A stretch of DNA of 63,912 nt from a virus (IMGVR_UViG_3300037484_000502:1-63912), one strand, 5' to 3'; positions 6,791 to 57,735 are shown, numbered from the stretch's first letter. The notes: generated from the letters alone by a model not told the origin. A program made the numbers and translations.

Positions 6791-6799
6791 GGTAGAATC

Positions 6800-7735: not shown

Positions 7736-7747
7736 GGTGTTGGACTC

Positions 7748-8599: not shown

Positions 8600-8604
8600 T
8601 CAGA

Positions 8605-9015: not shown

Positions 9016-9038
9016 ACCTTCGAACAGAAATAAAGGGG

Positions 9039-9254
9039 TTAGCGGCGGCTCGCAACTCGCCTTGTAATGGGCCACTCGGAGGAGGCCTTCCGGGCTTCGA
9101 TACTCAGCTCTTTGGCTTCTGTAATAGCCTTTCTCACAGTGGAGGCAAATCCTTCCACGGATGGCTGTAGGGCATAGAGATAACCCATGAGTTCCCCGTC
9201 AATCCGTGCAGCTTCATCCGATTCACGACGAGTTCTCTTAGGCTTGGTTGACAT
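9039..9254 (-). CDS. hypothetical protein
   Basis: AGGAG SD; 71 aa. Confidence 0.55.
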   Translation of the reverse strand: MSTKPKRTRRESDEAARIDGELMGYLYALQPSVEGFASTVRKAITEAKELSIEARKASSEWPITRRVASRR

Positions 9255-24013: not shown

Positions 24014-24046
24014 CGTTCCACCCTACGGCGGTCAAAGGTGGATTAC

Positions 24047-25470
24047 CGCCCATCCCCGTTTGCACGGGGGATACCAACCAACGCCCGGTTGACCAATGAA
24101 GGCGAACGGTTCATCCCCGCTTGCACGGGGATACTCCTCGACCAGCTCGTCTCTGAGACCGCCGAGGGGTCCATCCCCGCTTGCGCGGGGGATACTCAGG
24201 TATCTGAGGGCAGCCCCCGCCTTATCGAGGTCCATCCCCGCTTGCGCGGGGGATACCCATTGACGTAATAATTTCCGTACCCGTCGGAAGGTCCATCCCC
24301 GCTTGCGCGGGGGATACGTCTCCGCAAACGTTGTGGTGCCCAAGATGGCAGGTCCATCCCCGCTTGCGCGGGGGATACCGACGAGAGCTGTTCGGTGGAC
24401 GTGGAGCCACTGGTCCATCCCCGCTTGCGCGGGGGATACCGGGAGTGCGACGTGCAACAGCAGCGGCTCAGGGGTCCATCCCCGCTTGCGCGGGGGATAC
24501 CCTTGCACCGCCTCGGCCCCTTCGAGAGATCGAGGTCCATCCCCGCTTGCGCGGGGGATACGTGGGATTCGGAGCGACCGCTCGTAGCTCTTCAGGTCCA
24601 TCCCCGCTTGCGCGGGGGATACGAATCGTGGAACTTGCTACCGATGCCGAGACCGGGTCCATCCCCGCTTGCGCGGGGGATACCCTACTTCCGTCTCTAC
24701 CCACACGGCCGCATAGGGTCCATCCCCGCTTGCGCGGGGGATACTAGCATGCCTTGGCCAGGTCCATGTCTACGTAGGGTCCATCCCCGCTTGCGCGGGG
24801 GATACGTCACGTCCAGGCCACAGGACCCTACTAGACGGGGTCCATCCCCGCTTGCGCGGGGGATACGACGCCACGCACCCAGATAGTTCTGTAGGGCAGG
24901 GTCCATCCCCGCTTGCGCGGGGGATACTAGGCTGTGCAGACCGACGGTAGTAGAGGTGGAGGTCCATCCCCGCTTGCGCGGGGGATACCTGGGCAGCCGC
25001 TACCTGAGGGCACGATCAGAAGGTCCATCCCCGCTTGCGCGGGGGATACTCACCGTGAAATTTACCCGCGAGGAGTACTCCATCCCCGCTTGCGCGGGGG
25101 ATACGCCGCTGCCTGCTGTGCACGGGTCAGGACTGAGGGTCCATCCCCGCTTGCGCGGGGGATACCACGGGCGTACGCTTCCGCCGATCACCCGCATGGG
25201 TCCATCCCCGCTTGCGCGGGGGATACAATACGATGCCCCTGGTGCAACTGCTGCCCGGAGGTCCATCCCCGCTTGCGCGGGGGATACTCCTTAGTGGTAA
25301 GCGCCCATGCGTGTTCACGCGGTCCATCCCCGCTTGCGCGGGGGATACGCGGCGTGACGTAAGTGCCAGGCGCTACATGGAGGTCCATCCCCGCTTGCGC
25401 GGGGGATACAGGGAGGCGGGTAGCTGGTAGGTCGTCGCTGCAGGTCCATCCCCGCTTGCGCGGGGGATAC
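24047..25470 (-). CRISPR. type I-E CRISPR array 1: 24 repeats / 23 spacers; repeat GTATCCCCCGCGCAAGCGGGGATGGACC
   Basis: 28-nt repeat, 61-nt period; leader on right, degenerate repeats at left end; one unit shortened by 6 nt near 25050-25104. Confidence 0.98.
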
Positions 25471-25541
25471 TCTGCGACAACTTGTCGCAGGAAAGAAGTC
25501 TGATTCAGTTTTCAGAGATGGAGTCGAGACCCCCTTACTCC
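25471..25541 (-). promoter_or_regulatory. CRISPR leader 1
   Basis: Shares 21-nt TCCATCTCTGAAAACTGAATC and the palindrome CTGCGACA-N3-TGTCGCAG with leader 2; GGAGTAAG (minus, 25534-25541) resembles the promoter motif. Confidence 0.85.
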
Positions 25542-25552
25542 TTTTTCCCGGG

Positions 25553-25560
25553 GGCGTAAG
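25553..25560 (+). promoter_or_regulatory. GGCGTAAG motif 6 nt before cas1 ATG
   Basis: Recurrent motif; no SD before cas1. Confidence 0.55.
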
Positions 25561-25566
25561 TAGTTC

Positions 25567-26463
25567 ATGTTTCTGAAAGGTCGCCTTGGAATCGATGGGG
25601 CGCAGATTGCGCAGGCGGATCGCCATGGGGTACTTTGGTTGGGTCGTGGGATCCTGGATGTTCGGGATGGTGTCGCACGATTCGTGACTGTGGGAACAGA
25701 ATGGCTCCCGGCGGGGGATTACGCAATTCCATTTCAACAATTGTCGTGCGTGGTTTTGGGGCCCGGTACCTCTATTACGCACGATGTACTTAGGATCTTT
25801 GCGGCCCACGGAACTGGTTTGGTAATGACTGGTGAGGATGGGGTGAAGTTCTATGCCAGTATGCCATTTGGCCCGGATGACTCCAGGCGGGCTAGAAGAC
25901 AGGTCGCGATATGGTCAGATGAATCAAAGAGATCACTCCTGGTGAGACGAATGTATGCCTGGCGTATGGGAGAAATCTTCCCAGATGCAAGTCTCGATGT
26001 TCTTCGTGGGATGGAGGGTGCACGAGTGAAGGCATCCTATGAGCATCTAGCACACGCTCACGGAATTACTTGGAAGGGGAGGCAATACGACCGCGGTGAC
26101 CCCGAATCCGCAGATCACCCCAACCAAGCGATAAATCACGCATCCACAGCAGTCAACGCATGTGCAATGGTCGCAACGGCTGTGACTGGCACCATCCCTC
26201 AACTGGGATTCATCCATGAGACGAGTGGTAATGCACTCTGTCTCGATGTTGCGGATATGTTCCGGGAATCTGCGACAGTACCGACGGCATTTGCAGCAGT
26301 GAAAGAGCACCAGAAGGCACCTGATAAGTCACTTGAACGCACAGTGCGTAAGTTCGTGGGAAAGCTGGCACGGAGAACACAGCTTGTTGCTCAGATGATT
26401 GACAAGATCAAGGAGATGTTTGATGGGTGCGACAACGATTCTAGTGACGAGAAACGTACGTGA
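25567..26463 (+). CDS. cas1: type I-E CRISPR integrase Cas1
   Basis: LGPGTSITHD, LRGMEGARVK, LGFIH, LDVADMFR; catalytic E/H/D present. Confidence 0.97.
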   Translation: MFLKGRLGIDGAQIAQADRHGVLWLGRGILDVRDGVARFVTVGTEWLPAGDYAIPFQQLSCVVLGPGTSITHDVLRIFAAHGTGLVMTGEDGVKFYASMPFGPDDSRRARRQVAIWSDESKRSLLVRRMYAWRMGEIFPDASLDVLRGMEGARVKASYEHLAHAHGITWKGRQYDRGDPESADHPNQAINHASTAVNACAMVATAVTGTIPQLGFIHETSGNALCLDVADMFRESATVPTAFAAVKEHQKAPDKSLERTVRKFVGKLARRTQLVAQMIDKIKEMFDGCDNDSSDEKRT

Positions 26464-26770
26464 CCGCTTTCGTGGATTCCTTGCATCATGTACCTGTGAG
26501 GTGGCACCTGGAGTGTACCTCGGTTTCGATATGAACTCTAGGGTACGAGAACGTGTGTGGGATGTTCTTGAATCGTGGTGGCAACTTGGGGACGACGCCA
26601 GCGTTGTTATGGCATGGCCCAAAGCTGATGCACCTGGAGGTATGCGTGTCAAAACTCTCGGTGTCCCACCCGTTGAACTTGTCGAGATTGATGATTTGAT
26701 ACTAACACGTCGGGATGCGGATGCAGAACAACGAACTGTTCTGACGAAGCGGCTGGGCGTAAGAACCTGA
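26423..26770 (+). CDS. cas2: type I-E Cas2
   Basis: RFRGFLAS..EVAPGVY..RVRERVW; follows cas1; start approximate. Confidence 0.93.
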   Translation: MGATTILVTRNVRDRFRGFLASCTCEVAPGVYLGFDMNSRVRERVWDVLESWWQLGDDASVVMAWPKADAPGGMRVKTLGVPPVELVEIDDLILTRRDADAEQRTVLTKRLGVRT

Positions 26771-29451
26771 TGCGAGGAACACCAACGACATTTTGGGGGA
26801 AGCTGACGAGAAACGCGGCTGGAGAAGTCACCGATTGGCATCCCCTGGTTGCCCATTGCGCTGATGTGGCTGCTGTTGTGGAGGCCCTGCTCACAAGAAC
26901 GATCCTTGGTATCAGATTTGCCCATATTTTGGGTATGGGTACCCTCGACAGATGCACCATAGCAAAGTTGTGTGTCCTTGCTGCACTCCACGATATCGGA
27001 AAATTTAATCATGGATTTCAAGCAAAATCCCTACCCCTGGGTAGCAAGGTAGAACGTAGGGGACACACCACTGAAGGTTTGTCACTTTTCAATCCACCGG
27101 GACCAGATCCTGAGATTCTTGCTCTGCAAGAGCGCCTCCCTCTTGCGGATTTCAAAATGTGGGGGGAAGAAGAGAGCATCGGGCTTCTTCTTGCTTCAAT
27201 CAGTCATCACGGTAGGCCGGGGGATGTGGATGCAGCTCGATTTGAACGGGAGATTTGGCGCCCTCGGGGTGGGAAGGATCCAGGTGAGGGCCTTGGCCTT
27301 CTTGTCTCCCACATCAAGGGATGGTTTCCGGAGGCATTCTCCGGTGTTGGGACACTCCCATCCGCACCGGCTTTTCAACACGCCTATGCGGGGCTCGTCA
27401 TGCTTGCAGACTGGGTTGGATCGGATAGTTCGGAGGGGGCATTCCGATACCAAACAGATCTGGATCCTTCTGACCGCATGGTGTTCTCCAGGGCGCAAGC
27501 TGCTAAGTCCCTAGTTGCACTAGGTCTCGATGTAGAAACCTACCGAACCTCCCTTGGTATTGAGACCCCCAAATTCGGGAACATTTGGACACCATATCAA
27601 CCCAACAGTGCCCAACAGGCTGTGATTGATCTCCGCTTGGCACTCAAGTCGGGCATGCTGTCGTTGCTTGAGTCAGAAACAGGATCCGGCAAAACAGAAG
27701 CGGCGATCATCCACTTCCTGAGACTTTTTCATCTGGGTCTTGTGGACGGCTTGTACTTTGCGTTACCTACCAGAACAGCTGCAACACAGATTCACAAGCG
27801 AGTAGTGGATGCTGTTGCGAAAGCTTTCCCGGATAGTGTGTGTCGGCCACCAGTCGTACTTGCAGTACCTGGGTATCTTCGCATAGATGAAATCGAGGGC
27901 AGGAAGCTTCTACCTGGGTTTGAGGTTCTATGGAACGATGACCCACTTAGGGCTCAACGGTATAGGGGGTGGGCTGCCGAACTCCCGAAGCGTTTTTTAG
28001 CCGGGGCTATTGCTGTCGGGACCATTGACCAGGCATTACTTTCGGCACTGCAAGTAGACCATGCCCATCTTCGATCTACAGCACTGTTGAGGCATCTTCT
28101 CGTAGTCGATGAAGTCCATGCCTCGGATGCATACGGAACGAGACTCCTCACGGAAGTTTTGGGCACACACCTATCGGCCGGTGGTCATGCATTGCTGCTC
28201 TCTGCAACACTTGGGACAGAGGCTCGAACCAGACTTTTCACACCTCAGGATGCACCACCCCAAAAACCGCCCCCTCTCTCGGAGGCCAAACTTGCTCCGT
28301 ACCCAGCACTCACTACTCGTATTGAGGGTGAGACTGAGGTGGTTGTACGCACAATCAAAGTCTCCTCAACTTCAGTGCCCAAGTATGTGATGCCAGACCT
28401 GCGCCCTTGGATCCGCGATCCCTCAAAGATCATTGCCGAAGCACTTGAAGCAGCTAGAAGAGGAGCACGCATCATCATCCTGCGAAACACTGTGGGTGAC
28501 TGTGTTGCGACACAAAAGGCTCTCGAAACAGCGGTAGCTGCTAGTGGGGAGGGTCATTTGCTCTTTAGGTGCAAGGGCGTTTCGGCCCCCCACCATTCCC
28601 GCTTCGCCCGTGAGGATAGGAACGATCTTGACGTTGCGATTGGGGAGTCCTTCGGTAGAAATGGGAAACACCACTTTGGGATGATTGCGGTTACGACTCA
28701 GACCATACAACAAAGTCTCGATTTGGATGCCGACCTACTCATTACTGATTTGTGCCCCATGGACATACTGCTCCAGCGTATTGGGCGTCTTCATAGGCAC
28801 CCAATACGAGTAAGGCCCGAGGGATATGGGAAGCCACGAGTGGTTGTGCTTGTCCCTACGGACCGTAATCTAGGCAAACTGATTGGTCCCAAAGGTGAGG
28901 CGCGTGGAAGACATGGGTTTGGCCGTGTGTATGAAGATCTACGCATCCTGGAAGCAACGTGGAGACTGCTGGAAACTGAGAGTGTCCTGGAGATTCCGAC
29001 GATGAACCGGCACCTCGTTGAACACACCACCCATCCTGAGGCACTTGGTGCAATCGTGCGTGAACTTGGGGGCGTGTGGCCTGTGCACCAGATAAGGGTT
29101 GACGGGATCCGACTAGCTAGCAGCGGTGTGGCAATGCTCAATCTAGTCAGACGTGATCAACCCTTTGGTGAGCTTGCAACATGTTTCCCGAGCAAAGGGG
29201 AGGACAGTCGTCGCATCCCCACTCGCTTGGGGGAAGGGGATCGCAGGTTGGTGTTCCAGGACTCCTTTGAGAGCCCGTTTGGGCATTGGATTCGAGAACT
29301 GAGCGTGCAAGGGTGGCTCGCTGATGGGGCGGCTTCCGATGGGGCTGCGATAGTTATGGGGGTAAGTGGGGAATCGACTCTAATCTCGTCTGGGGATGCG
29401 ATTTTTGTCTACGATCGGCTGGGACTGCGTAAAGGAGACAACGCACTGTGA
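26770..29451 (+). CDS. cas3: Cas3 HD nuclease-helicase
   Basis: LVAHCADVAAV, LHDIGK, SHHG, LADWVGS; TGSGKTE, DEVH, SAT, QRIGRLHRH. Confidence 0.97.
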   Translation: MRGTPTTFWGKLTRNAAGEVTDWHPLVAHCADVAAVVEALLTRTILGIRFAHILGMGTLDRCTIAKLCVLAALHDIGKFNHGFQAKSLPLGSKVERRGHTTEGLSLFNPPGPDPEILALQERLPLADFKMWGEEESIGLLLASISHHGRPGDVDAARFEREIWRPRGGKDPGEGLGLLVSHIKGWFPEAFSGVGTLPSAPAFQHAYAGLVMLADWVGSDSSEGAFRYQTDLDPSDRMVFSRAQAAKSLVALGLDVETYRTSLGIETPKFGNIWTPYQPNSAQQAVIDLRLALKSGMLSLLESETGSGKTEAAIIHFLRLFHLGLVDGLYFALPTRTAATQIHKRVVDAVAKAFPDSVCRPPVVLAVPGYLRIDEIEGRKLLPGFEVLWNDDPLRAQRYRGWAAELPKRFLAGAIAVGTIDQALLSALQVDHAHLRSTALLRHLLVVDEVHASDAYGTRLLTEVLGTHLSAGGHALLLSATLGTEARTRLFTPQDAPPQKPPPLSEAKLAPYPALTTRIEGETEVVVRTIKVSSTSVPKYVMPDLRPWIRDPSKIIAEALEAARRGARIIILRNTVGDCVATQKALETAVAASGEGHLLFRCKGVSAPHHSRFAREDRNDLDVAIGESFGRNGKHHFGMIAVTTQTIQQSLDLDADLLITDLCPMDILLQRIGRLHRHPIRVRPEGYGKPRVVVLVPTDRNLGKLIGPKGEARGRHGFGRVYEDLRILEATWRLLETESVLEIPTMNRHLVEHTTHPEALGAIVRELGGVWPVHQIRVDGIRLASSGVAMLNLVRRDQPFGELATCFPSKGEDSRRIPTRLGEGDRRLVFQDSFESPFGHWIRELSVQGWLADGAASDGAAIVMGVSGESTLISSGDAIFVYDRLGLRKGDNAL

Positions 29452-30992
29452 CCAACCATCAAAACGATCTACTGACAGAATCCATCTTCGGAGTCGAAGG
29501 TCGGGATGGACGATCCAGAGTATCTCTTGCGGGCCTTCTAGCGCGCCTTGGACAAGGTGTTCCGACCGAGATGACGGCACTTATGTCGCATCAACAGCAC
29601 CCGTGGCACGCATTTGTAGTACAACTTGCGGCACTGGTTCTTGCTCGAAATGGGGACACTAGACTCGACCGATCGGAAATCGAGTGGTGTGACGCCTTGC
29701 GAAATCTGGCCGGTGGGGAAGAGGCATTCTCTCTTGTCGTCCCTGACCTGTCAAAGCCTGGATTCATGCAGTCCCCGGTTCCTGAGGGCTCCCTATCGGA
29801 TTGGAAGAAAGATCAGGTACACCACACGCCGGGTGAACTCGATGTAATCCCTACTGCGAGAAACCACGATGTGAAGATCGGCAGATTTAGTAGTCCTGCA
29901 CTTGAGCACTGGATCTACGCGCTTGTGTCCCTACAGACGAACGAAATGTTCATGGGCGCTAAGAATTGGGGTATTGCACGCATGAATGGTGGGACTTCAT
30001 CGCGCCCTTGTATCAGTGCTGCCAGAAGTAGCAACTTTGAAGTGCGGTTCACCCGTGACGTGACAACGTGGCTGCAAGAACGCGAGAGACTCGTTCGTGA
30101 ACGTGGTTACGATTCCGCTGGGATTGGACTCGTGTGGGCTGCCCCCTGGGATGGCGAACAGAGTCTGGCACCCTCGGACTTAGATCCTTTCTTCATAGAG
30201 GTATGTCGTAGAGTCCGATTTGTGTCGAATGGGTGTGGTGGATTACAAGCACACTATCGCCCTACTAACGTCTTACGAATCTCACCAATGGGGATGCCAA
30301 AGGCATACGGTGCAACGGGTGACATTTGGACTCCCCTTAAAACCAAAGATGGCGGTTCCCTGACTGTTTCCTCGAATGGTTTCGACTATAGAACTCTTTC
30401 AGACCTACTATTCAGTTCTGACTGGCGCCAAAGCCCCTCACAGATAGTACGAAAGGAAGACGGCCCTACCCCTGTACTGATTGCATGTGCGTTAGCGCGT
30501 AAGCAAGGTGGGACTGAGGGACTTCATGAGCGTGTCATCCCTATCCCAGAGAAAGCGAAGAGATGTTTTGCTTCCCCTGGGGATCGTGTGCAGATTGGCA
30601 AGGTGGCGAAGGACCGGGTCGCCCGCGTATTGAAGATGCGGGACGGTGTCCTCAAGCACGCACTCCTCGCTATAGTCCAAGGGGGCCCTACCAAGATCAA
30701 CTTCAAGGACAAGAGCGCCAAAGTCCATCTAGATGCCTTCGAGCAACGTATTGATGGCCTGTTCTTCGAGCACCTCTTTGATGCGATAGGTCTTGAACCA
30801 GAAGAGTCTGAATCCCTTTGGGATGCCCTTCTCCTCAAAGAGGCGAAAGACGTGAAGAAGCGTGCGGAGGGTACACTCACGATTCCTATCTCACGTCGGT
30901 ACAAGGCACTTGCCGCAGGGGACCGCACCTTTCTAGATTCGTCCAAGAAGCATAAGTTTTACCGGCCTGTTCCCGATACTGGAGCCAAATGA
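29448..30992 (+). CDS. cas8e: Cascade large subunit Cas8e/Cse1
   Basis: HQQHPWHAFVVQLA, NWGIARMNGG, LDPFFIEVCRRVR; position after cas3. Confidence 0.9.
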   Translation: MTNHQNDLLTESIFGVEGRDGRSRVSLAGLLARLGQGVPTEMTALMSHQQHPWHAFVVQLAALVLARNGDTRLDRSEIEWCDALRNLAGGEEAFSLVVPDLSKPGFMQSPVPEGSLSDWKKDQVHHTPGELDVIPTARNHDVKIGRFSSPALEHWIYALVSLQTNEMFMGAKNWGIARMNGGTSSRPCISAARSSNFEVRFTRDVTTWLQERERLVRERGYDSAGIGLVWAAPWDGEQSLAPSDLDPFFIEVCRRVRFVSNGCGGLQAHYRPTNVLRISPMGMPKAYGATGDIWTPLKTKDGGSLTVSSNGFDYRTLSDLLFSSDWRQSPSQIVRKEDGPTPVLIACALARKQGGTEGLHERVIPIPEKAKRCFASPGDRVQIGKVAKDRVARVLKMRDGVLKHALLAIVQGGPTKINFKDKSAKVHLDAFEQRIDGLFFEHLFDAIGLEPEESESLWDALLLKEAKDVKKRAEGTLTIPISRRYKALAAGDRTFLDSSKKHKFYRPVPDTGAK

Positions 30993-31543
30993 TGACTGAT
31001 TCGACAACTGAGTTGGTGGAACAACCACAAACTGAGCCCCCTTATCGTGAGCGTCTCTCATCGGCGGTCAACACAATCTCGATTGGGATGAGTCGTGGAT
31101 ACTCTCGGGGGGACGTTTCAGCACTTCGCCGTCTCAACTCAAAAAGTTGGGGGGCCCCCATCTTCTGGCACATTGTTACCCAAATACTTGAGCCTAATGG
31201 GCTAGTGTCCCCTGTGGGACACCGTGCACAAGAGGATGAGAGGCGCTGGGCTGTCCTGCTTGCCTCTATGGCCCTACTCCAGGGGCAGCACACACATCAA
31301 GTCCCCTTCGGTAAGGGGCTTGCTGTTGCTCAGGTGAGCCCACTTCGCGTCGAGCGCCTGTTACGTGCACATGGCAGTGCACTCCTCGATCTTGTCAAAT
31401 CCATGGCCCACCAACTATCCTCGAAAGGCGTAAAGTTCGACCAGGTGGGGTTGGTTGAGTTGGTGCTCTCAGACGGGGCCCCCTATGAAGAGAGCATCCG
31501 CCGATCAATTGCCCGAAGCTTCTACCGCATCGAAACACGCTAA
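30989..31543 (+). CDS. cas11: Cascade small subunit Cse2/Cas11
   Basis: GDVSALRRL, SPLRVERLL, RRSIARSFY. Confidence 0.9.
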   Translation: MMTDSTTELVEQPQTEPPYRERLSSAVNTISIGMSRGYSRGDVSALRRLNSKSWGAPIFWHIVTQILEPNGLVSPVGHRAQEDERRWAVLLASMALLQGQHTHQVPFGKGLAVAQVSPLRVERLLRAHGSALLDLVKSMAHQLSSKGVKFDQVGLVELVLSDGAPYEESIRRSIARSFYRIETR

Positions 31544-31574
31544 CAACCGAATCACAATGTACATGGATAACTCA

Positions 31575-32810
31575 ATGACCCTGACCCGTTTCCTTCAGAT
31601 CAACTGTCTCACATCGTACCCGGCGTCCCTCCTCAACAGGGATGACTCAGGATTTGCAAAGCGAATCCCGTTTGGTGGGACCACCAGAACTCGTTGCTCT
31701 TCACAGAGCCTCAAATACCACTGGCGGTCGCATGATGGGGAGTATGCGATCTCTGGTATCGAAGGCGTCGAACTCTCAGTCCGCTCACGGGTGACTTTCG
31801 AGAGTGAGGTGTTTGCGAAGCTTGTCGCTGAGGGGGTACCTGAGGTGCGGGCTGACGTGCTGACGAAGGCGCTTCTGGCACTGGTACTCGGAAAGAGTGA
31901 CAAGGCCGCACAGGAAGAGACGGACGAAGAGGACAAGCCCAAGAAGAGCAAGAAGAGCAAGAAGAGTGAACCTGAGTCCCGTGAGTCGATCCAAACGAAT
32001 CAGGTGACTGTTTTCGGCAGGCCCGAGCTGAGTTATCTGTTTGGGGAAGCCCTGAAGATTGCAACCACCCCCACCTTTGAGGCTCTTTTCAGTAGCCCCG
32101 AGAAGGTAAAGGAGGCCGTCAGTGGTGCTGTTGAGGCGCACTTCAAGTCGAAAGACCATAAGGCCAACCTCAAGGCTCTCAAGCTGGGTGCTGGTATCGA
32201 CGCAACGCTCTTTGGTCGAATGGTAACTGGGGACATCCTTGCGCGATGTGATGCGGCAATTCATGTCTCCCATGCCTTCACAGTCCACGAGGAAGCAACC
32301 GAGAGCGATTACTGGTCGGCAGTGGACACCTTGTCGGAAGCAGCGGGAAGTGCACACATCAATTCCAGTGAACTCACGACCGGTCTCTTCCACATCTACA
32401 TTTGTGTAGACATCCCCCTACTCGTTTCGAATCTGGGTGGTGACTTGGCGCTTGCAGGTGAAGTCCTTGCACGTCTGGTGCACACTGTCTCAACAGTGTC
32501 TATCGGTGCAAAGCTGGGATCAACAGCGCCACATACCTACGCACAAATGGTGCTCGTGGAAGCTGGTAACTCTCAACCCTGCACAATGGCAAATGCTTTC
32601 GCAAATGCTGTGAGCACCAACGGATCCCTGCTTGCAAATGCCTACGATGCACTCGCACGATTCGTAACTGACCTCGATGCGATGTACGGTTCGAAGAACA
32701 AGCGTGTGATCGCAATGATGGGGCCCCGAGAGAAGCTCGCAGGTGTGTTCCCGGCACCTGTAACTCTTGCGGAGGTTGCGGACTTTGCTCGCGCTGTGGT
32801 CTCCAAATGA
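31575..32810 (+). CDS. cas7: Cas7/Cse4 backbone subunit
   Basis: LLNRDDSGFAKRIPFGG..R.SSQSLK, LFGRM, ESDY.SAVD; start may be 31557 or 31563. Confidence 0.95.
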   Translation: MTLTRFLQINCLTSYPASLLNRDDSGFAKRIPFGGTTRTRCSSQSLKYHWRSHDGEYAISGIEGVELSVRSRVTFESEVFAKLVAEGVPEVRADVLTKALLALVLGKSDKAAQEETDEEDKPKKSKKSKKSEPESRESIQTNQVTVFGRPELSYLFGEALKIATTPTFEALFSSPEKVKEAVSGAVEAHFKSKDHKANLKALKLGAGIDATLFGRMVTGDILARCDAAIHVSHAFTVHEEATESDYWSAVDTLSEAAGSAHINSSELTTGLFHIYICVDIPLLVSNLGGDLALAGEVLARLVHTVSTVSIGAKLGSTAPHTYAQMVLVEAGNSQPCTMANAFANAVSTNGSLLANAYDALARFVTDLDAMYGSKNKRVIAMMGPREKLAGVFPAPVTLAEVADFARAVVSK

Positions 32811-33565
32811 TCGATGTCCTCGTGCTGCGATTTGAGGCCCCCCTTATGTCGTTTGGTGACGTTGCCATCGACAGTAAGAGGCCCACACGCATGTTTCCTA
32901 CCCAGTCCATGATCACAGGTCTGTGTGCCAATGCACTAGGACATGGGCACCATGAGCCGGATCGAACCGGTGCCTTGCAAGCAAGAATCCGTTTTGCTGC
33001 ACGGCGTGACCGTGAGGGGGAAATGCTGCGTGACTACCACACGGTAGATTTGGGTCAAAAGGACTCCCGTGGGGTGTATTGGATGGCAGACACAGGTTGG
33101 ACAACACACGGCGCCCCGGAGTGTCGTGGCGGGGACTCCAAAAACAGAATGGGGACACACCAACGTGAGCGGTTCTATCTGGCAGATGCCATCTACACTG
33201 TCGTGCTGGCTCTGTCCCCATCTGAATCTGAGGAGTCACCATCTCTTGAGTCCTTAGAAGCTGCATTACAGGAACCAGCTCGCCCTCTCTTCCTCGGACG
33301 GAAGACATGCATCCCCGCGTCCCCAATCCTTGTGGGTCGTACAAGCGCAAGCACCCTACTCTCAGCACTCTCTACAGCCCCACTCGCAAATAGGTCCACA
33401 ATCCGAGATGGCCGTGTCCTTGCGGAGTGGCCTGACGATGGGACTGAAACGGACATCTTGAAATCGCGTCGATCAGCAATCACTGATGAACGAGATTGGG
33501 CAAATCAGATCCATGTTGGCCGACGATTTGTACGTGAAGGAATGCTGACACTGGAGATGAAGTGA
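32807..33565 (+). CDS. cas5: Cas5e
   Basis: LRFEAPLMSFG, PTQSMITGL.ANALG, DYHTV, R.YLADA, LFLGRK.CIP. Confidence 0.95.
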   Translation: MIDVLVLRFEAPLMSFGDVAIDSKRPTRMFPTQSMITGLCANALGHGHHEPDRTGALQARIRFAARRDREGEMLRDYHTVDLGQKDSRGVYWMADTGWTTHGAPECRGGDSKNRMGTHQRERFYLADAIYTVVLALSPSESEESPSLESLEAALQEPARPLFLGRKTCIPASPILVGRTSASTLLSALSTAPLANRSTIRDGRVLAEWPDDGTETDILKSRRSAITDERDWANQIHVGRRFVREGMLTLEMK

Positions 33566-34239
33566 CCCCCCAATTGCACCTTGTCCGACTCGAACTGAAT
33601 CCCTCACGGGTTTTTGATTTTGGGGCGCACCTTCGTCTGCCTCAGGGTACAGACTTGGGCTATCTGGTGCACTGCCAATTAGGCACCCTCTTTGGAGAGT
33701 GCAGCCTCACACCATTTGTTATAGAGGACACCAAGAAATCCCGTAACATCATTGTGCAAGGATACAGCACGCGTAGTGGTGAAGAACTTCGAGAGTATGC
33801 TCAGACTTTCTCGGACCCCAGAGCCTTTGAGGCGTGTGATTGGACTACATTTGCAAGCAAACCCATGCCTATGGCTTCGGTGCTCAAGCATGGAATGCAA
33901 CTAGGTTTTGCCACACGAGTTCACCCAGTTAAGCGTACTAGATCGGGGGAAAGAACACTCTCAGAACAAGAATTGCCTGCGTGGGTTACAAGAGAACTCT
34001 CCCGTAATGGGGCAGCAACTCTCAACGTAGTCAAAGTGTCACCTATCCGACTTATCCCTATGACTCGGCGCACGCAGGGTGTTGATCGTCAGATTGTGTG
34101 TTGGGGTGGTCCTGAGGTTCACCTGGAGGGGGCCTTCACTGTCAGGGACCCTGAATCTTTCCAAATGTTGTTGTTACGAGGTGTGGGACGCCAACATGCG
34201 TTTGGATTTGGAATGCTTCGGTTGCGTTCTGCGCGATAG
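33562..34239 (+). CDS. cas6e: Cas6e/Cse3 crRNA endonuclease
   Basis: N-terminal His (GYLVHCQL) and C-terminal GVGRQHAFGFGML glycine loop. Confidence 0.93.
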   Translation: MTPQLHLVRLELNPSRVFDFGAHLRLPQGTDLGYLVHCQLGTLFGECSLTPFVIEDTKKSRNIIVQGYSTRSGEELREYAQTFSDPRAFEACDWTTFASKPMPMASVLKHGMQLGFATRVHPVKRTRSGERTLSEQELPAWVTRELSRNGAATLNVVKVSPIRLIPMTRRTQGVDRQIVCWGGPEVHLEGAFTVRDPESFQMLLLRGVGRQHAFGFGMLRLRSAR

Positions 34240-34289
34240 AATCCATCTCTGAAAACTGAATCGGAGCCCCTGCGACAACCTGTCGCAGA
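34240..34289 (+). promoter_or_regulatory. CRISPR leader 2 (50 nt)
   Basis: Conserved blocks 34242-34262 and 34270-34288 shared with leader 1. Confidence 0.85.
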
Positions 34290-36037
34290 GTATCCCCCGC
34301 GCAAGCGGGGATGAACCTCTTCCCAAGACCAGGTGATGCACACCTGACCGTATCCCCCGCGCAAGCGGGGATGAACCTCCTCGAACGGCCCCATCTCCAC
34401 CCTGAATGCCGTATCCCCCGCGCAAGCGGGGATGAACCTTCTCGATTAGTCTACGAAGTTCCGGGGCGCGAGTATCCCCCGCGCAAGCGGGGATGAACCC
34501 GACACGCTCCCGCCCTACCTCGGAAACCGAATGTATCCCCCGCGCAAGCGGGGATGAACCGATGCAGCGCTGCTATTTCCAGCACGCTAGGACGTATCCC
34601 CCGCGCAAGCGGGGATGAACCTACCTAAGTAATAGTTTTCTCTTAGGTGAAAAGGTATCCCCCGCGCAAGCGGGGATGAACCTCTTTATGAAGGCTTCAG
34701 CGAAGGACGAGAAGGGTATCCCCCGCGCAAGCGGGGATGAACCCTCGTAGGAATACGACAGGCGGGGTCTTGGCGAGTATCCCCCGCGCAAGCGGGGATG
34801 AACCCTCATTACAGCCTCTGTAACGGAGATTCCGAAGGTATCCCCCGCGCAAGCGGGGATGAACCCGTGACAAGGCGCTCTCCGTCCCCCATGCCGTCGT
34901 ATCCCCCGCGCAAGCGGGGATGAACCGCCACCTTTGTAGCCGCTAGGGTGGCCCACACGGTATCCCCCGCGCAAGCGGGGATGAACCTGCCACCACGTAC
35001 CTGTCATCTACCGGCAACATGTATCCCCCGCGCAAGCGGGGATGAACCTCCACTGTGACGACTTTGGAGATCATCTTGGCAGTATCCCCCGCGCAAGCGG
35101 GGATGAACCTGCCTGGGCACCGGCCCCCGTAGCATGGATGATGTATCCCCCGCGCAAGCGGGGATGAACCTCATCTCTCGTGTCCCTACCCAGACAGCAG
35201 TACGTATCCCCCGCGCAAGCGGGGATGAACCTCTATCTCGTAATCCAGCACGTCATCGGGGTCTGTATCCCCCGCGCAAGCGGGGATGAACCTGAGTGCT
35301 CTCCAAATTCAATACCTGGTGGACAGTATCCCCCGCGCAAGCGGGGATGAACCGTGAAGGAGCCCACGTATGAACGACTACAAGACGTATCCCCCGCGCA
35401 AGCGGGGATGAACCCTGAGATTCAATGCCGCAGAGCTGGCCTCCCTCGTATCCCCCGCGCAAGCGGGGATGGACCTCCCAGTGCCGCTCTCGAATCGCGT
35501 TGCGGACAGTATCCCCCGCGCAAGCGGGGATGGACCCGGAGGGGCACGTCGACCGATCTGATGCCGCTTGTATCCCCCGCGCAAGCGGGGATGGACCCCT
35601 GCGTTTGGCGCGTTCTGGTCGATCGAAGTTGTATCCCCCGCGTAAGCGGGGGATGGGCCGCGAGTCGATCATGCGGACGTAGTGGGCGGGTGTGTTTCTC
35701 GCGTATCCCCCGTGCAAACGGGGATGAACCCGACGGAGACCTTCCGGCGGTGCGGCCCAAGGATTATCCCCCGTGTGAACGGGGATGGACCTCCCACACA
35801 TCGTTAGGTTTATGCAACGTTGGAGTGTCTCCCCCGTGCGAACGGGGATGGGCCGCACTCTTCCAGCGTCATCATGGCGGCACCGCAGTATCCCCCGTGT
35901 AAGCGGGGATGAACCGTGTCCGACGCTTTCCGAACGTCTGTCGGAGAAGTATCCCCCGTGCGAACGGGGATGGACCCTTCACAGTCACCTACCAAACCAA
36001 TCTGATCACGTATCCCCCGTGCAAACGGGGATGGGCC
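34290..36037 (+). CRISPR. type I-E CRISPR array 2: 29 repeats / 28 spacers; repeat GTATCCCCCGCGCAAGCGGGGATGAACC
   Basis: 61-nt period; last 7 repeats degenerate; one 43-nt spacer (35660-35702). Confidence 0.98.
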
Positions 36038-36041
36038 CTGG

Positions 36042-39000
36042 TTAGGCCCGATCTTCACTGAACGAGAAAGTCCAAACCCCGGGAGTCAGGTATTCAACTC
36101 CCGTCGGGTCAATGTCTCGTTCACCAGTCTCAAGTCCCACGATGTATGTCGCCCAGTACGCATGATTGCTTGGTGCGTCTCCCACAGGCAGGGACACCAT
36201 CACCCTATTCTGTGTGATTGCCACGCGCCGGGCGGCAATCTCCGCCGGTGTCACGTACCCTTGGGAAATTAGTGTATTATCGTCACTATAGGCGGGGATC
36301 ACCACGCCTTCAGCCCCGATGATGTACGTGCGACCCGCAGCCTCCTGCAACTGCTCAGGCAGCGTCAGTTGCAAGGTGAGTTGCACATCGTCCTCGAACA
36401 CACCAACGAATGAGCCTGTGGGCCCGCCGCCAGTCGTTGTCGCCGCAGTCAGCTCTTGAGTTATGAGCCAGGTGCTTACGACAGCATCCGACCACTGATC
36501 TAGGCGGACGGTGTCTCCGATTTGCCCTGACGCCAAGTCATCCTTTGCCACGGTTGATCCGAAGGCACGCACAAGTGTCGTGAGTGGGAGCACCACGTAC
36601 GACACTCCCGAGCTGGAGTCCAACACGTTCACTACATCAGAGCGGCGAAGGGGGCTACCCATACGCAACCGTGAGAGAAGAAGCCCTAGATTTGTGCGCA
36701 GCGTAGCATCCACCGTGCTCTGCTGGAATCCCTTCTTGAGTACGCATGTCGCCGTCAGATCTACAGGAACGGGAATCCCGCCCTTCGCCAGCACATCTGC
36801 CGCTCCGTGCTTGGATCCATCAAGGGCCGTTTGCAGGGCGCTTGTGATCAAGTTGGTCTGGTAGGTGATGACAAAATTCTCGTCGTAGGAGTAGCTAATG
36901 AGAATCGTCTGGCCATCGGTGATTGCACTGCCGGATGTTCGCTTGATTCCCAGGGGGTTCGTCTGGTCACCGTCGGCAATAGAGTAATCTGGCGACACCG
37001 AGGTAAATGGATTGTTGTAGGTGACCGTGCCGTCTGCATTCTTCACGACGATGGTCATGGAGTCCGCGCCCAAGTGCAGCACGTACTCCGTGTAGTCGCC
37101 TACGATCACATGTTCTTCGTCCACGACCGAAAGGATCGCCCCCGTGGGTACGGAAAGTGCGGGGTCCGCGCTGCCCGTGATCTGAAGGTAGTCCCCAGCC
37201 TGCGTAGACCGCCCTAGGGCGAGGGGCGAGTTGGGATGGACCAAGGTCCAGGTAGAGGCGTCGAGCGTGCCGCTGGCCTCCCCCACGACCTGCGTTATGC
37301 TCTCTACGGGCTGGCGCGTGAGGACGAACTTCTCACCTGTCCGGTACCGGTAGTCTCCGAGGATTACGTCGGTCAATGTGGGAAGGCCAACGGGCTGTGG
37401 CACATCCAGAGAGAGTGCAATCGTGTTGTAGTTGAGGTACGTGACCCCCGACAGGTTGTAGACCATCGAAGTGGTGGCGTTCCGCAGCCCCAGACCGATG
37501 GCCGAGTAGTCGAGCATCTGGCTCAGGGGATTTGTTGCGGACAGGTCGGAGTCCAATGCCTGAAATTGATAAGCACTGGGGTCCCCCACCACCACGAACT
37601 GCACGTCCCGCTTGCGTACGAACGTGAAGGCGAAGGAGTCTGTTACCGTGGCGAGACGCTGGCCCTGGGACCACACGTCGACCTTGCCACCGATGTGCGT
37701 GGCACTCGCCACATCGTAGTCCCGCTGCATGAGGGGATTGCCAGCCTCTACGACCTGTGCCTGAATCAGGCCGGGTACCTTGGCAGCCGTCTGGAAGTAG
37801 CCACGCTGCGTGCCGGTGTCCACTGCGGAGAGTGCGCCTCTGGACTCCGCAGCGAGCTGTGCGTTAGTCTGTGCGTTAGTACCCCCGAAGAACTCGTTGT
37901 CATTGATGACGGAGAGGCCGAATGGTGCCCCAGAAGAGATCTGTCTGGCTCCAATGTTTCCCGAGCTGCCAGGGTTCACGGCCTGAGCCGGAACCGTGAT
38001 CGAATATTGCCCTGTGGATGGGTTGTAGAATGAAGCCAATCTCGAAAGTGGGATTTCCGCAATCCTAGACGATCGAAACGAGACACCTCCCCCTGAGAGT
38101 AGGGTTCCCAGTTGGGCTTGAAGCGTTGTCGTGGGCGTGGTCCCCGTGTAGAAGCGGGCCTCTCCGATTGCCCTTTGCCCGGGAGTGCGTGTCACCCCGA
38201 AGTTGGCAGCCAGCTTATCGAAGGCGCCGTCGATGACGGTTTGAACGAGGGCCGGATCCGAGAGATAAAGTGCCTTGCTCAAAGCAATCTTGTAGTTGGA
38301 GGACGCAGGCGCGAGGGATACACCGCTGCCTGAGGGATCATCGATCTCCAAGAGCGTATCAAAGGACGACGCCCGGTAGATGAAGTCCAACAGGAACCGG
38401 ATGCGTTCGGCCTCTGTCGAGAACGGATCTAGAACCGTGTCCCGAACGACGGCACCCGGCTGGACTGCAATGTCCTTGTCCTTGCGGTAGATGCTGGCCA
38501 CCGCGTTCTGTAAGATCTGTTGCCGGCTAACCGACGGCAGACTCTGCGTGCTCACCCTGATGTTGATAGGATTGGCAACGACCTCTTGAGAGAAACTAGA
38601 CTCATACTCAATCTGAGTGAGCGGATCGAAGTACACAGCGGTCGCCACGTAGTAGAGAGGCTCCGTAGAAGGAAGCACCGCGAATGCGCCCACAGGGATT
38701 GTAGAAGGTACAGAGGTGAGGTTGTACTTCCTGTTGTGTAGGAACTCGAAGTACTCGATCAACTCAAGAGAGGAAATCGAAATGTCCACCTGAACTTCGG
38801 TGACTGTCTCCGGAATTTGAACCGCAGAGTTGACGTCGGTCTCCAACGTAGCCTGGGTGGAATCCTCTTGAGTGATGAGCGCTCTCACGAAGAGGGGGTC
38901 TGCACCCTGTGCGACATTCTTGCTGGTCAGGTTGAAGAGAGAAACCGTGCTCTCTTTCGTTACGGGCACCGTCACCGAGATGGCATTGATTCTGGAGTAT

Positions 39001-45594: not shown

Positions 45595-45863
45595 TTGAGC
45601 CCCCGTGCAGCGTAGTACATGCTGGCACTGCGTGCGACGGACTCACTACAGGTACAGACATCGGTACATTGGTGCATCAAGTCCGCCACCGTGACAATCA
45701 CTCGTAGTGCGTCGATCTCAGCCAGAAGCTTGGCTATCTCATGTGCCTGCGGAATGCCTCTCGGCTTCTCTCGGATGTACTGCTCTTCCTCCGCTGTCAT
45801 CGTGAGTGGCTTCACATCTACGGTGACCGAGTCAAACACACTCTTCGGTGTGAGTGGCTTCAC
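45591..45863 (-). CDS. hypothetical protein
   Basis: GTG start overlapping TGA of upstream gene; LLAEIDALR helix. Confidence 0.5.
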   Translation of the reverse strand: MKPLTPKSVFDSVTVDVKPLTMTAEEEQYIREKPRGIPQAHEIAKLLAEIDALRVIVTVADLMHQCTDVCTCSESVARSASMYYAARGLK

Positions 45864-57728: not shown

Positions 57729-57735
57729 ATGGTCT

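What the first reader, a model, noticed from the sequence alone, without database searches (positions are those of the whole stretch)
24047..36037. Complete type I-E CRISPR-Cas with two arrays embedded in a phage baseplate operon
Seen: all eight cas genes with catalytic motifs intact and 51 spacers, with none obviously shared between arrays. The locus lies between baseplate J-like and the next wedge gene. Established: most phage-borne CRISPR loci are mini-arrays or lack cas1/2 or cas3; ICP1 type I-F is the classic complete case. A full adaptation-plus-interference I-E system inside a structural module is unusual. Inference: used against competing phages, satellites or host defence islands.
Basis: partly seen in the sequence, partly recalled or inferred. 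Interest (0 to 1): 0.85.

Follow-up and report, generated by a model that had tools for sequence, protein, structure and literature searches.

The report
Complete CRISPR system inside huge phage
A fragment of a very large bacterial virus carries a full, apparently working CRISPR immune system wedged between two tail-baseplate genes, and its two oldest memories match those same genes in rival related viruses.

Summary
At 24047-36037 lie eight intact type I-E cas genes (cas1-cas2-cas3-cse1-cse2-cas7-cas5-cas6e). They are flanked by two outward-reading arrays with 24 and 29 repeats, 51 unique spacers in all. The 12-kb block sits 4 nt after the stop of a baseplate-J-like gene and 33 nt before the start of a 1718-aa gene.

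The flanks belong to a phage, not a chromosomal tailocin. The same gene pair is adjacent in 41 of 52 IMG/VR relatives, and in G001 and a 485-kb phage record, the latter with a phage-G-like head protein. None of these carries cas genes there. Three relatives hold a GIY-YIG homing endonuclease at that junction, and one holds 11.9 kb of other cargo.

Two spacers could be traced, and they are the trailer-most one of each array. They copy the two flanking genes as found in relatives (31/33 in two contigs). The phage's own copies differ at seed positions.

My best reading is a real and probably active phage-borne I-E system used against related phages. This is a new member of a known kind. Read coverage could not be checked, and 49 of 51 spacers have no known target. 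A bolder reading, CRISPR-guided homing of the island, is not excluded.

The parts
24047..25470 (-). CRISPR array 1: 24 repeats and 23 spacers, read on the - strand away from the cas genes. The degenerate repeats lie at the 24047 end.
   Evidence: hairpin fold
25471..25566 (-). Leader of array 1. It shares with leader 2 a 21-nt block and a palindrome that abuts the first repeat. It is also the region upstream of cas1.
   Evidence: (D9)
25567..26463 (+). cas1 (type I-E)
   Evidence: (TIGR03638, 266 bits)
26399..26770 (+). cas2 (type I-E). The coordinates are the outer limits of the ORF; the true start is probably a few codons in.
26770..29451 (+). cas3, a fused HD nuclease and helicase
29448..30992 (+). 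cse1/cas8e-like large subunit. The model match is weak; its position fits.
   Evidence: 43.7 bits, below cut-off; no Pfam or PDB sequence match; 43-47% identical to the gene in the same position in metagenome I-E loci
30989..31543 (+). cse2/cas11 small subunit
   Evidence: 49 bits against a 28.5 cut-off
31557..32810 (+). cas7e. The start is inferred from the 417-aa database entry P0001.
32807..33565 (+). cas5e
33562..34239 (+). cas6e
34240..34289 (+). Leader of array 2
   Evidence: (D9)
34290..36037 (+). CRISPR array 2: 29 repeats and 28 spacers, read on the + strand. The degenerate repeats lie at the 36037 end.
24075..24107 (-). Trailer-most spacer of array 1 (A1_sp23). It derives from a relative's copy of the 1718-aa gene.
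   Evidence: (D7)
35977..36009 (+). Trailer-most spacer of array 2 (A2_sp28). It derives from a relative's baseplate-J gene.
23472..23504 (-). The phage's own, mismatched counterpart of A1_sp23, inside the 1718-aa gene (27/33)
36844..36876 (-). The phage's own, mismatched counterpart of A2_sp28, inside the baseplate-J gene (24/33; guide positions 3-7 all differ)
36042..39467 (-). Baseplate-J-like gene (1141 aa). Its stop codon lies 4 nt from the last repeat of array 2.
18857..24013 (-). 1718-aa structural-module gene. It follows baseplate J directly in relatives. Its start lies 33 nt from the last repeat of array 1.

Best explanation
This is a genuine, complete and probably active type I-E CRISPR-Cas island of about 12 kb, carried by a huge phage related to phage G and Tunturi_5. 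It was gained horizontally and sits in the short junction between the baseplate-J-like gene and the next gene (1718 aa). In relatives that junction is a few bases long or holds other mobile cargo.

Shown:
- The anatomy of the island and the intact motifs.
- That it is an insertion relative to other phages of the clade.
- That the two arrays have homologous leaders.
- That two spacers derive from related phages.

Inferred mechanism: each array is transcribed outward from a leader next to the cas operon. Cas6e cuts the hairpin repeats. Cascade (Cse1, Cse2, Cas7, Cas5, Cas6e) loaded with crRNA finds protospacers next to an AA-type PAM. Cas3 then degrades the target. Cas1-Cas2 add spacers at the leader ends. 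At least part of the memory is aimed at closely related phages that would co-infect the same host, while the phage's own copies escape through seed mismatches.
For: Completeness: eight open, tightly coupled cas genes with type I-E model matches. Cas3 and Cas1 motifs align with solved structures.

Arrays: 53 repeats all keep one 6-bp hairpin. The eight repeats with T at stem position 7 (seven among the nine trailer-end variant repeats, plus the second-to-last repeat of array 1) pair it with A (6 of 8) or G (2 of 8). The two leaders share a 21-nt block and a palindrome. Successive repeat variants run along the arrays (T-A type, then GGACC, then GAACC). The first variable base is T or C in 41 of 51 spacers. 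Both features fit repeated, PAM-dependent acquisition.

Phage context: the record is an IMG/VR virus record. Eight module genes are syntenic, at 46-62% identity, with the 485-kb record LR745208.1, where the two flanking genes lie 3 nt apart. That record has a head protein 47.8% identical to the one in Tunturi_5 and 37% to the one in phage G. In 41 of 52 IMG/VR relatives, plus G001, both genes are visible. The gaps are 3-652 nt in 37, 1.1-2.2 kb in 4, and 11.9 kb in G001. None of the 42 carries cas genes.

Foreign origin: GC3 of the cas genes is 0.53, against 0.64 and 0.63 for the phage genes. The closest Cas7 proteins are 57-63% identical.

Targets: A2_sp28 matches the baseplate-J genes of L170 and L171 at 31/33 and of L195 at 30/33. 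In all three the 5' flank is CGAGAA. The only mismatches in L170 and L171 are at guide positions 6 and 18. The phage's own copy matches at 24/33, with positions 3-7 all different. A1_sp23 matches the phage's own 1718-aa gene at 27/33 and relatives at 24-26/33, with mostly synonymous differences. Shuffled spacers reached at most 24/33 on the ±10-kb loci and 26/33 on the whole contigs.
Against: - Activity is inferred from sequence only. No expression or interference data exist.
- Cse1 scores below its family cut-off, and the Cas6e His was judged by eye.
- 49 of 51 spacers have no identified target in GenBank phages, in plasmids, or in about 1.4 Mb of relatives.
- Only two spacers were searched exactly in IMG/VR, and neither was found.
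- The two traced spacers are the oldest ones. They may record past conflicts rather than present ones, or immunity of a former bacterial owner.
- The island is a singleton. Its repeat, its ancestral repeat variant and its leader each have 0 matches in IMG/VR.
- Its GC3 differs from the phage's.
- Read support for the junctions could not be obtained.
- No sigma-70-like promoter was found at either leader.
Confidence: 0.65

Rival explanations
1. Captured host memory. The island, with its arrays, was taken recently from a bacterial chromosome or plasmid. That bacterium's CRISPR had been immunised against this phage clade. The trailer spacers then record bacterial defence, not phage-versus-phage attack. 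The system's role in the phage could be different, or it could be neutral cargo.
For: - GC3 of the cas genes (0.53) differs from the phage genes (0.63-0.64).
- The nearest named Cas7 relatives are bacterial: Polyangia, Myxococcales, Binatia and Acidobacteriota, at about 50-55% identity.
- The traced spacers are the oldest in each array.
- The island is found in no relative.
Against: - No bacterial genome among 185,579 species carries the exact repeat.
- The gene order with cas1-cas2 in front of cas3 appears in 0 of 35 related metagenome loci that show both genes, so this is not a simple copy of a sampled chromosomal locus.
- This reading does not explain why the traced spacers match exactly the two genes that abut the island.
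- The closest Cas7 is only 63% identical, which gives no sign of recent transfer.
Confidence: 0.2
2. Assembly chimera. A bacterial CRISPR-Cas contig was wrongly joined into a phage contig.
For: The island is a singleton, its composition differs from the phage, and reads could not be checked.
Against: - A chimera would have to be spliced in at both ends, exactly between a stop codon and the next start codon of an operon that continues in synteny on both sides.
- The same junction holds other insertions in relatives.
- The phage's own near-protospacers match at only 24-27/33 and lie 0.5-0.8 kb from the junctions. They could not have misled an assembler.
Confidence: 0.04
3. The flanks are a chromosomal tailocin or contractile injection system, or a degraded prophage, so the CRISPR locus is simply bacterial.
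For: - The window holds no capsid, portal or terminase gene, and CheckV estimates it at 7% complete.
- One relative (G002) is labelled a provirus by IMG/VR.
Against: - The module is syntenic with a 485-kb phage record that has a phage-G-like major head protein.
- All 52 relatives are virus records, on contigs up to 485 kb.
- The rest of the window holds ORFans, homing endonucleases, a sigma factor, a polyvalent-protein ART domain and PHROG-only families. It has no housekeeping genes and no tRNA genes.
Confidence: 0.03

Closest known systems
Vibrio phage ICP1 type I-F CRISPR-Cas (Seed et al. 2013; as described in passages of the review PMC11656645)
   Same: Both are phage-borne class 1 systems with arrays, an adaptation module and an interference nuclease. 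Both are present in only some members of the phage lineage. Both occupy a fixed accessory locus that other members fill with a GIY-YIG nuclease. In ICP1 that nuclease is Odn. Here it is a GIY-YIG/NUMOD3 gene at the same junction in L195, L177 and L179.
   Different: The subtype here is I-E, not I-F. The carrier is a huge phage related to phage G and Tunturi_5 with an unknown host. The locus sits inside the baseplate operon. The traced spacers hit related phages, not a host satellite. Nothing here has been tested experimentally.
CRISPR-Cas loci of metagenomic huge phages (Al-Shayeb et al. 2020, PMC7162821; passages read)
   Same: The carrier is the same kind of phage; the syntenic relative LR745208.1 is a 485-kb uncultured-phage record. 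That paper already reports phage spacers that target structural genes of other phages.
   Different: The paper states that almost all such loci lack Cas1, Cas2 and Cas4 and have a median of six repeats per array. This locus has cas1, cas2 and cas3 and 24 + 29 repeats. I could not see the paper's supplementary tables, which may list type I-E cases.
Canonical bacterial type I-E loci (E. coli K-12 type; 80 metagenome loci examined here)
   Same: The set of eight genes is the same. The repeat is a 28-29-nt hairpin and the spacers are 32-33 nt. Cas1, Cas3 and Cas7 are 45-60% identical to those of the metagenome loci.
   Different: The order is cas1-cas2-cas3-cse1-cse2-cas7-cas5-cas6e. In the metagenome loci cas1 follows cas6e in 56 of 56 loci that show cas1, and it precedes cas3 in 0 of 35 that show both. 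Two arrays read outward from short leaders of about 50-95 nt.
Freestanding phage homing endonuclease genes (GIY-YIG/NUMOD3, T4 seg/mob type; Barth et al., PMC10055350, search listing only)
   Same: Both are presence/absence polymorphisms at an intergenic junction between conserved structural genes. In both, a nuclease specificity is aimed at sequence within 1 kb of the insertion site in genomes that lack the element, while the carrier's own copy differs.
   Different: Here the specificity would be RNA-guided and the element is 12 kb long. No second genome carrying the island is known, so mobility has not been shown.
Virus-borne I-F CRISPR-Cas in Acinetobacter baumannii that targets a prophage competing for the same integration site (bioRxiv 10.1101/2023.09.20.558655; abstract and outline read)
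   Same: A virus-carried CRISPR-Cas whose spacers target a rival linked to the element's own insertion site.
   Different: There the site is a bacterial ssrA hotspot and the rival is an unrelated prophage. Here the site is inside the phage genome and the targets are homologous genes of sister phages.

Membership tests
Type I-E CRISPR-Cas | Cas3 with fused HD nuclease and superfamily-2 helicase | tested here: met
   Pfam Cas3_HD, DEAD and Cas3-like_C_2. Aligned over residues 4-753 with the Cas3 structure 4q2c. The HD, GxGKT, DEVH and SAT motifs are present.
Type I-E CRISPR-Cas | Cascade subunits Cse1 (Cas8e), Cse2 (Cas11), Cas7e, Cas5e and Cas6e | tested here: met
   Cse2, Cas7e and Cas5e score above the NCBIfam cut-offs. 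Cas6e is above the Pfam cut-off (69 against 25) but below the NCBIfam one (37.5 against 45.2). Cse1 reaches only 43.7 bits against a cut-off of 70.05, but it is 43-47% identical to the gene in the same position in metagenome I-E loci.
Type I-E CRISPR-Cas | Cas1e and Cas2e adaptation genes with catalytic residues | tested here: met
   TIGR03638 at 266 bits against 215.6; TIGR01873 at 74 against 33. The E, H and D..D positions align with E. coli Cas1 (which residues are catalytic is recalled).
Type I-E CRISPR-Cas | 28-29-nt hairpin repeat ending ...GGGGAT(G/A)AACC, with 32-33-nt spacers | tested here: met
   53 repeats on a 61-nt period; 47 of 51 spacers are 33 nt. A 6-bp stem with a tetraloop. 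The likeness to the E. coli repeat is recalled.
Type I-E CRISPR-Cas | Canonical operon order cas3-cse1-cse2-cas7-cas5-cas6e-cas1-cas2 | tested here: not met
   cas1-cas2 precede cas3. Among related metagenome loci this holds in 0 of 35 that show both genes. Order is typical of the subtype rather than defining.
Type I-E CRISPR-Cas | crRNA processing, PAM-dependent interference and spacer uptake | not testable with these tools
   Only indirect signs are available: the hairpin is kept by compensatory changes, 41 of 51 first bases are pyrimidines, and both traced protospacers follow GAGAA.
Phage-encoded complete CRISPR-Cas (ICP1-like kind) | The locus lies in a phage genome | tested here: met
   IMG/VR virus record. 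Synteny with a 485-kb phage record that has a phage-G-like head protein. 52 viral relatives. The window itself holds no capsid or terminase gene.
Phage-encoded complete CRISPR-Cas (ICP1-like kind) | Spacers against a host defence element or satellite | tested here: not met
   No match to plasmids, GenBank phages or the fetched bacterial loci beyond repeat-to-repeat likeness. The host genome is unknown, so this test is weak.
Phage-encoded complete CRISPR-Cas (ICP1-like kind) | Spacers against competing phages | tested here: met
   2 of 51 spacers trace to baseplate-module genes of related phages (31/33 and 30/33, and 26-27/33), above the shuffled controls.
Homing (selfish) nuclease element | Presence/absence polymorphism at one fixed site among related genomes | tested here: met
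   Island present here, absent in 42 of 42 relatives that show both flanking genes.
Homing (selfish) nuclease element | Nuclease specificity for the empty allele close to the site, with the carrier's allele immune | tested here: inconclusive
   The trailer spacers match relatives' sequences 0.5-0.8 kb on either side of the junction. The phage's own copies have seed mismatches. Cleavage is untested, and the matches to sampled relatives are 31/33 at best.
Homing (selfish) nuclease element | The same element found in two or more different genomic backbones | tested here: not met
   0 other IMG/VR contigs carry the repeat, the ancestral repeat variant or the leader. None of the 52 relatives has cas genes.

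The most novel reading that the evidence does not exclude
The island may behave as an RNA-guided homing element, in effect a natural CRISPR 'gene drive' among phages.

The trailer-most spacer of each array is kept because it directs Cascade-Cas3 to the two genes that flank the empty junction in co-infecting sister phages. The targets lie about 0.5 and 0.8 kb from the site. The resulting damage would be repaired from the island-bearing genome. That repair would copy the 12-kb island, or at least the carrier's flanking alleles, into the rival. The carrier itself is protected by seed mismatches.

In this reading the island competes for the very junction that GIY-YIG homing endonucleases occupy in other relatives.

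In favour: of 51 spacers, the only two that can be traced are exactly the two terminal ones, about 1 chance in 1275 if position were random, and they match exactly the two abutting genes.

Against: no second carrier of the island is known. Tracing is biased towards conserved patches of the one module I could sample. The orientation of the targets predicts that Cas3 would move towards the junction from one side only; the direction of Cas3 travel is recalled.
Probability: 0.13. Interest if true: 0.9.

Novelty: new member of a known kind. Interest (0 to 1): 0.6.

Why it matters
Phage-borne CRISPR systems with all three parts present (adaptation genes, Cas3 and long arrays) are rare.
- One survey passage reports that 250 of 299 phage systems lack Cas1/2/4 (PMC12676247).
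- The huge-phage study reports that almost all lack these genes and gives a median of six repeats per array (PMC7162821).
- In the passages I read, I-E is named among the subtypes that predominate in host genomes (I-C, II-A, I-E), not in phage genomes, where I-C, I-F and II-C are commonest.

This locus therefore offers several things:
- A compact I-E operon shaped by life in a phage, with very short leaders and an unusual gene order.
- A case where the insertion site, the empty alleles and the alternative occupants (homing endonucleases and other cargo) can all be compared.
- Direct sequence evidence of a phage keeping memory of its own relatives' baseplate genes while its own copies escape.

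If the flank-targeting trailer spacers turn out to drive spread of the island, it would be a natural RNA-guided homing system built from a full CRISPR-Cas locus.

Tried and rejected
Read support: the look-up of sequencing runs listed no run for 22500-26500. None was listed, which is not the same as none existing.

Other holders of the island: none was found.
- Cas7 alone against viral contigs gave 0 relatives.
- A Cas7 alignment against metagenome contigs gave 80 loci, all 54% identical or less. All have the canonical gene order and none has baseplate genes.
- The exact repeat gave 0 matches in genome contigs and 0 in viral contigs.
- The ancestral repeat variant and the leader block each gave 0 matches in viral contigs.

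Host: a relaxed repeat pattern hit 46 stretches from many phyla, so it does not point to a host. None of their spacers matched the window or its relatives convincingly. One Roseivivax spacer resembles G001's 1718-aa gene only if two indels are allowed, and I set it aside as chance.

Spacer targets:
- GenBank phages and PLSDB plasmids gave only repeat-to-repeat matches or matches at E of 0.1 or worse.
- The exact trailer spacers gave 0 hits in viral contigs.
- A2_sp17 matches LR745208.1 at 25/33. No closer relative supports it, and one shuffle reached 26/33, so I rejected it.
- A translated spacer search put the same two spacers on top. Its first run timed out with no output. The second printed the real hits but timed out before any shuffled control ran. 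That search therefore has no control, and its lesser hits (for example A1_sp8) are not used.

Capture by spacer-protospacer recombination: rejected. Both flanking genes are intact. The junctions are not at the protospacers. One spacer is inverted relative to its protospacer.

Phage hallmark genes: Terminase_6C and Terminase_6N gave no match in the window or in its relatives. Phage_capsid gave one match, below the cut-off, in LR745208.1. That match was then confirmed as a head protein by tblastn.

Promoter and terminator scans found nothing above the shuffled expectation.

The function of the 1718-aa protein has only a weak Atlas lead. No structure, complex or profile job was run. I could not read Al-Shayeb et al. 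2022 (Cell), which appeared only as a citation. Supplementary tables were closed, and they may list type I-E phage loci.

Full report
WHAT IS THERE

The window is one entire IMG/VR virus record of 63,912 bp. It is linear, and CheckV estimates it at 7% complete.

Between 24047 and 36037 lie two CRISPR arrays with an eight-gene operon between them.
- Array 1 (24047-25470) has 24 repeats and 23 spacers.
- Array 2 (34290-36037) has 29 repeats and 28 spacers.
- Together that is 51 spacers on a 61-nt period, and 47 of the 51 are 33 nt long.
- No two spacers resemble each other. The best pair shares 19 of 33 bases.

The genes on the + strand are cas1, cas2, cas3, cse1, cse2, cas7, cas5 and cas6e. Most overlap their neighbours by 1-4 nt. 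All match type I-E models. Cas1e, Cas2e, Cse2, Cas7e and Cas5e score above the curated cut-offs. Cas6e is above the Pfam cut-off but below the NCBIfam one. Cse1 is weak, at 43.7 bits against a cut-off of 70.05, but it is 43-47% identical to the gene in the same position in other I-E loci.

The Cas3 HD motifs and the helicase motifs GxGKT, DEVH, SAT and QRxGRxxR align with the solved Cas3 structure 4q2c. The Cas1 E, H and D..D positions align with E. coli Cas1. Which residues are catalytic is my recollection. The C-terminal half of Cas6e aligns with T. thermophilus Cse3. Its N-terminal His sits in YLVHCQL and was judged by eye only.

HOW THE ARRAYS ARE BUILT

The repeat orientation, the positions of the degenerate repeats and the leaders all agree that both arrays are read outward from the cas operon. 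Array 1 is read on the - strand and array 2 on the + strand.

The sequences next to the first repeat of each array share a 21-nt block and a palindrome that abuts the repeat (D9, 73, 74). Both arrays therefore have the same short leader.

Repeat variants are ordered along the arrays.
- At both trailer ends the stem carries T at a position where the main type has C. Its partner is A in 6 of 8 such repeats and G in the other 2. The 6-bp hairpin with its tetraloop is therefore kept.
- The last repeats of the two arrays are almost the same variant.
- Moving towards the leader, a ...GGACC type follows. In array 2 the 19 newest repeats are ...GAACC.
- This is the pattern expected when each new repeat is copied from the leader-proximal one during many rounds of acquisition.

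The first variable base after the repeat is T or C in 41 of 51 spacers. That fits a base carried over from the PAM, as in E. coli (recalled).

IS IT IN A PHAGE, AND IS IT AN INSERTION?

The gene at 36042-39467 (- strand) is baseplate-J-like. The gene upstream of it is a gp25-like sheath initiator. The 1718-aa gene at 18857-24013 has no family match. Calling it a wedge gene rests only on an Atlas lead at a score that chance hits also reach.

The last repeat of array 2 ends 4 nt from the baseplate-J stop codon. The last repeat of array 1 lies 33 nt before the ATG of the 1718-aa gene.

In LR745208.1, a 485-kb record deposited as an uncultured phage, eight genes of this module are syntenic at 46-62% identity. 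There the two genes are 3 nt apart with nothing between them. That record encodes a major head protein 47.8% identical to the one in the isolated jumbo phage Tunturi_5, and 37% identical to the one in Bacillus phage G. The clade is therefore viral, not a tailocin.

A baseplate-J alignment retrieved 52 IMG/VR loci. Several are near-duplicates, to judge by identical identity values, and about 29 are distinct.
- 41 loci show both genes.
- The apparent gap is 100 nt or less in 19 loci, 107-652 nt in 18, and 1.1-2.2 kb in 4.
- In G001 the gap is 11.9 kb. It holds unrelated cargo: a PolA-like fragment, a histidine phosphatase and a DEAD helicase.
- None of these 42 has a cas gene.
- Three of the four kilobase-sized gaps hold a GIY-YIG or GIY-YIG/NUMOD3 homing endonuclease gene.

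The junction is therefore a recurrent landing site for mobile cargo, and the CRISPR island is one occupant, seen only here.

The GC3 of the cas genes is 0.53, against 0.64 for the structural module and 0.63 for the other ORFs. The nearest Cas7 proteins are 57-63% identical and sit on short metagenome contigs. Named bacterial ones, mostly Myxococcota, are about 50-55% identical.

The gene order is unusual. In 80 related metagenome loci, cas1 follows cas6e in 56 of 56 loci that show it, and it precedes cas3 in 0 of 35.

CHIMERA?

I could not examine reads. The indirect arguments are against a chimera.
- Two clean junctions fall exactly at gene boundaries of one operon.
- The operon continues in synteny on both sides.
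- The same site is used by other insertions in relatives.
- Some spacers come from this very phage clade.
- The phage's own near-protospacers match at only 24-27/33 and lie away from the junctions, so they could not have caused a misjoin.

WHAT THE SPACERS SAY

I compared all 51 spacers, without gaps, against three sets of sequence:
- the window with its arrays masked;
- the whole of LR745208.1 and four whole relative contigs (310 kb);
- 52 loci of ±10 kb (0.82 Mb).

Shuffled spacers reached at most 24/33 in two of these sets, and 26/33 once in the third.

Two real spacers stand out, and they are the trailer-most spacer of each array.

A2_sp28 (35977-36009):
- It matches the baseplate-J genes of L170 and L171 at 31/33, of L195 at 30/33, and of four further relatives at 27/33.
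- The match is always in the coding sense and always follows CGAGAA. BLAST confirmed it independently.
- In L170 and L171 the only mismatches are at guide positions 6 and 18. In E. coli Cascade those are flipped-out, unread positions (recalled).
- The phage's own copy (36844-36876) matches at 24/33. The PAM-adjacent base and guide positions 3-7 all differ.

A1_sp23 (24075-24107):
- It matches the phage's own 1718-aa gene (23472-23504) at 27/33. Four of the six differences are synonymous third positions. The encoded peptide is KFAFIGQPGVGW, against the phage's own KFSYIGQPGVGW.
- Relatives match at 24-26/33, and most carry a GAGAA-type flank.

Both spacers were therefore copied from homologous genes of phages close to, but not the same as, any sampled one. 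Neither should target the carrier.

The other 49 spacers have no target in what I could search.

MECHANISM

My best reading (confidence 0.65) is a real and probably active I-E system. The arrays are transcribed from leaders next to the cas operon. Cas6e processes the hairpin repeats. Cascade recognises targets next to an AA-type PAM. Cas3 degrades them. Cas1-Cas2 insert new spacers at both leaders. At least part of the memory is directed at sister phages, as already reported for huge phages in general (PMC7162821, passages).

The main rival (0.2) is that the arrays were immunised in a bacterium and captured along with the cas genes.

AN UNEXPLAINED REGULARITY

Only two of the 51 spacers can be traced. 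They are exactly the two terminal ones, which has a chance of 1 in 1275 if position were random. They also match exactly the two genes that abut the island, 0.5 and 0.8 kb from the junction.

Part of the positional coincidence is ascertainment. Only the conserved structural module could be sampled in relatives, and only conserved patches can be traced. The baseplate-J protospacer starts right after one of the two most conserved peptides, the one search for related loci chose as a search pattern. The terminal position of both spacers is not explained by that.

Together with the homing endonucleases at the same junction in relatives, this suggests that the island's flank-directed spacers might act like a homing nuclease against empty alleles. 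I give that reading 0.13. No second carrier of the island is known. Capture by spacer-protospacer recombination does not fit the geometry.

COMPARISON AND NOVELTY

The closest known case is ICP1's I-F system. It is complete, phage-borne and variably present, and it alternates at its locus with a GIY-YIG nuclease (review passages).

Complete systems in jumbo phages are known: 'some appear fully functional' (PMC11656645), and 37 of 243 phage-targeting systems were complete in PMC12676247. This locus is therefore a new member of a known kind. What sets it apart is its subtype, its full gene set, its large arrays, its permuted order and its well-resolved insertion site.

I could not read Al-Shayeb et al. 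2022 or any supplementary table. Those may list other I-E phage loci.

Interest: 0.6.

Noticed in passing
window 41496-42281 (-): A GIY-YIG + NUMOD3 homing endonuclease gene sits inside the same baseplate module, upstream of the 287-aa gene. A 45% identical copy lies at the syntenic place in G002. G001, G003 and G004 show no match at E of 1e-8 or better. This is a second presence/absence nuclease polymorphism in the module.
   Followed up: partly
L010 13418-23417 = G001 contig 21349-33210: In this 97.6-kb relative the same junction holds 11.9 kb of different cargo, mostly on the opposite strand. It includes a DNA-polymerase-A-like fragment, a histidine phosphatase and a DEAD/Helicase_C protein.
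   Followed up: partly
L195 13463-14341; L177 11592-12668; L179 8256-9335: GIY-YIG (with or without NUMOD3) homing endonuclease genes occupy the junction between baseplate J and the 1718-aa gene in three relatives. In L170 the junction instead holds a 378-aa ORF with weak methyltransferase matches and a 162-aa ORF.
   Followed up: yes
window 5975-9075 (-): A run of accessory ORFs: a pentapeptide-repeat protein (5975-6790) and a protein with an ART-PolyVal ADP-ribosyltransferase domain (7748-8599). Three neighbouring ORFs (6800-7735, 7748-8599, 8605-9075) share an N-terminal stretch of about 30-45 aa that matches a single place in LR745208.1.
   Followed up: no
window 54316-55338 (-) and 56874-57812 (-): A Ser/Thr protein kinase with an N-terminal DnaJ domain, and a full sigma-70-family factor (regions 1.2, 2, 3 and 4). 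This is typical huge-phage host-takeover cargo. The sigma factor may explain why no sigma-70 consensus promoter was found at the CRISPR leaders.
   Followed up: no
window 45860-46915 (-) and 51813-52826 (-): A DUF4419 protein (E 7e-64) and an ORF with a partial pyruvate-kinase barrel match. Their function in the phage is unknown.
   Followed up: no
GenBank JX006077.1 (Saccharomonospora phage PIS 136) 15680-15896 and three other places: Array 2 gives multi-unit matches at about 70% identity to this 94.9-kb phage record. This suggests that the record holds I-E-like repeats under a 'hypothetical protein' annotation.
   Followed up: no
L131 2604-2640 (Roseivivax sediminis array) vs G001 19395-19431: A bacterial I-E spacer resembles the 1718-aa gene homologue of relative G001, but only if two indels are allowed. 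It is probably chance and not usable as a host link.
   Followed up: yes
G002 (contig of L195, 76,089 bp): IMG/VR classes this close relative (78% baseplate-J identity) as a provirus, unlike the other relatives. I did not look for bacterial flanks, which could give a host.
   Followed up: no
window 25050-25137 and 35598-35887: Irregular units inside the arrays. In array 1, a repeat truncated at its 3' end is followed by a 27-nt spacer. In array 2, two spacers are 43 and 35 nt long, and one repeat has an extra G. These are signs of small deletions and insertions in old parts of the arrays.
   Followed up: partly
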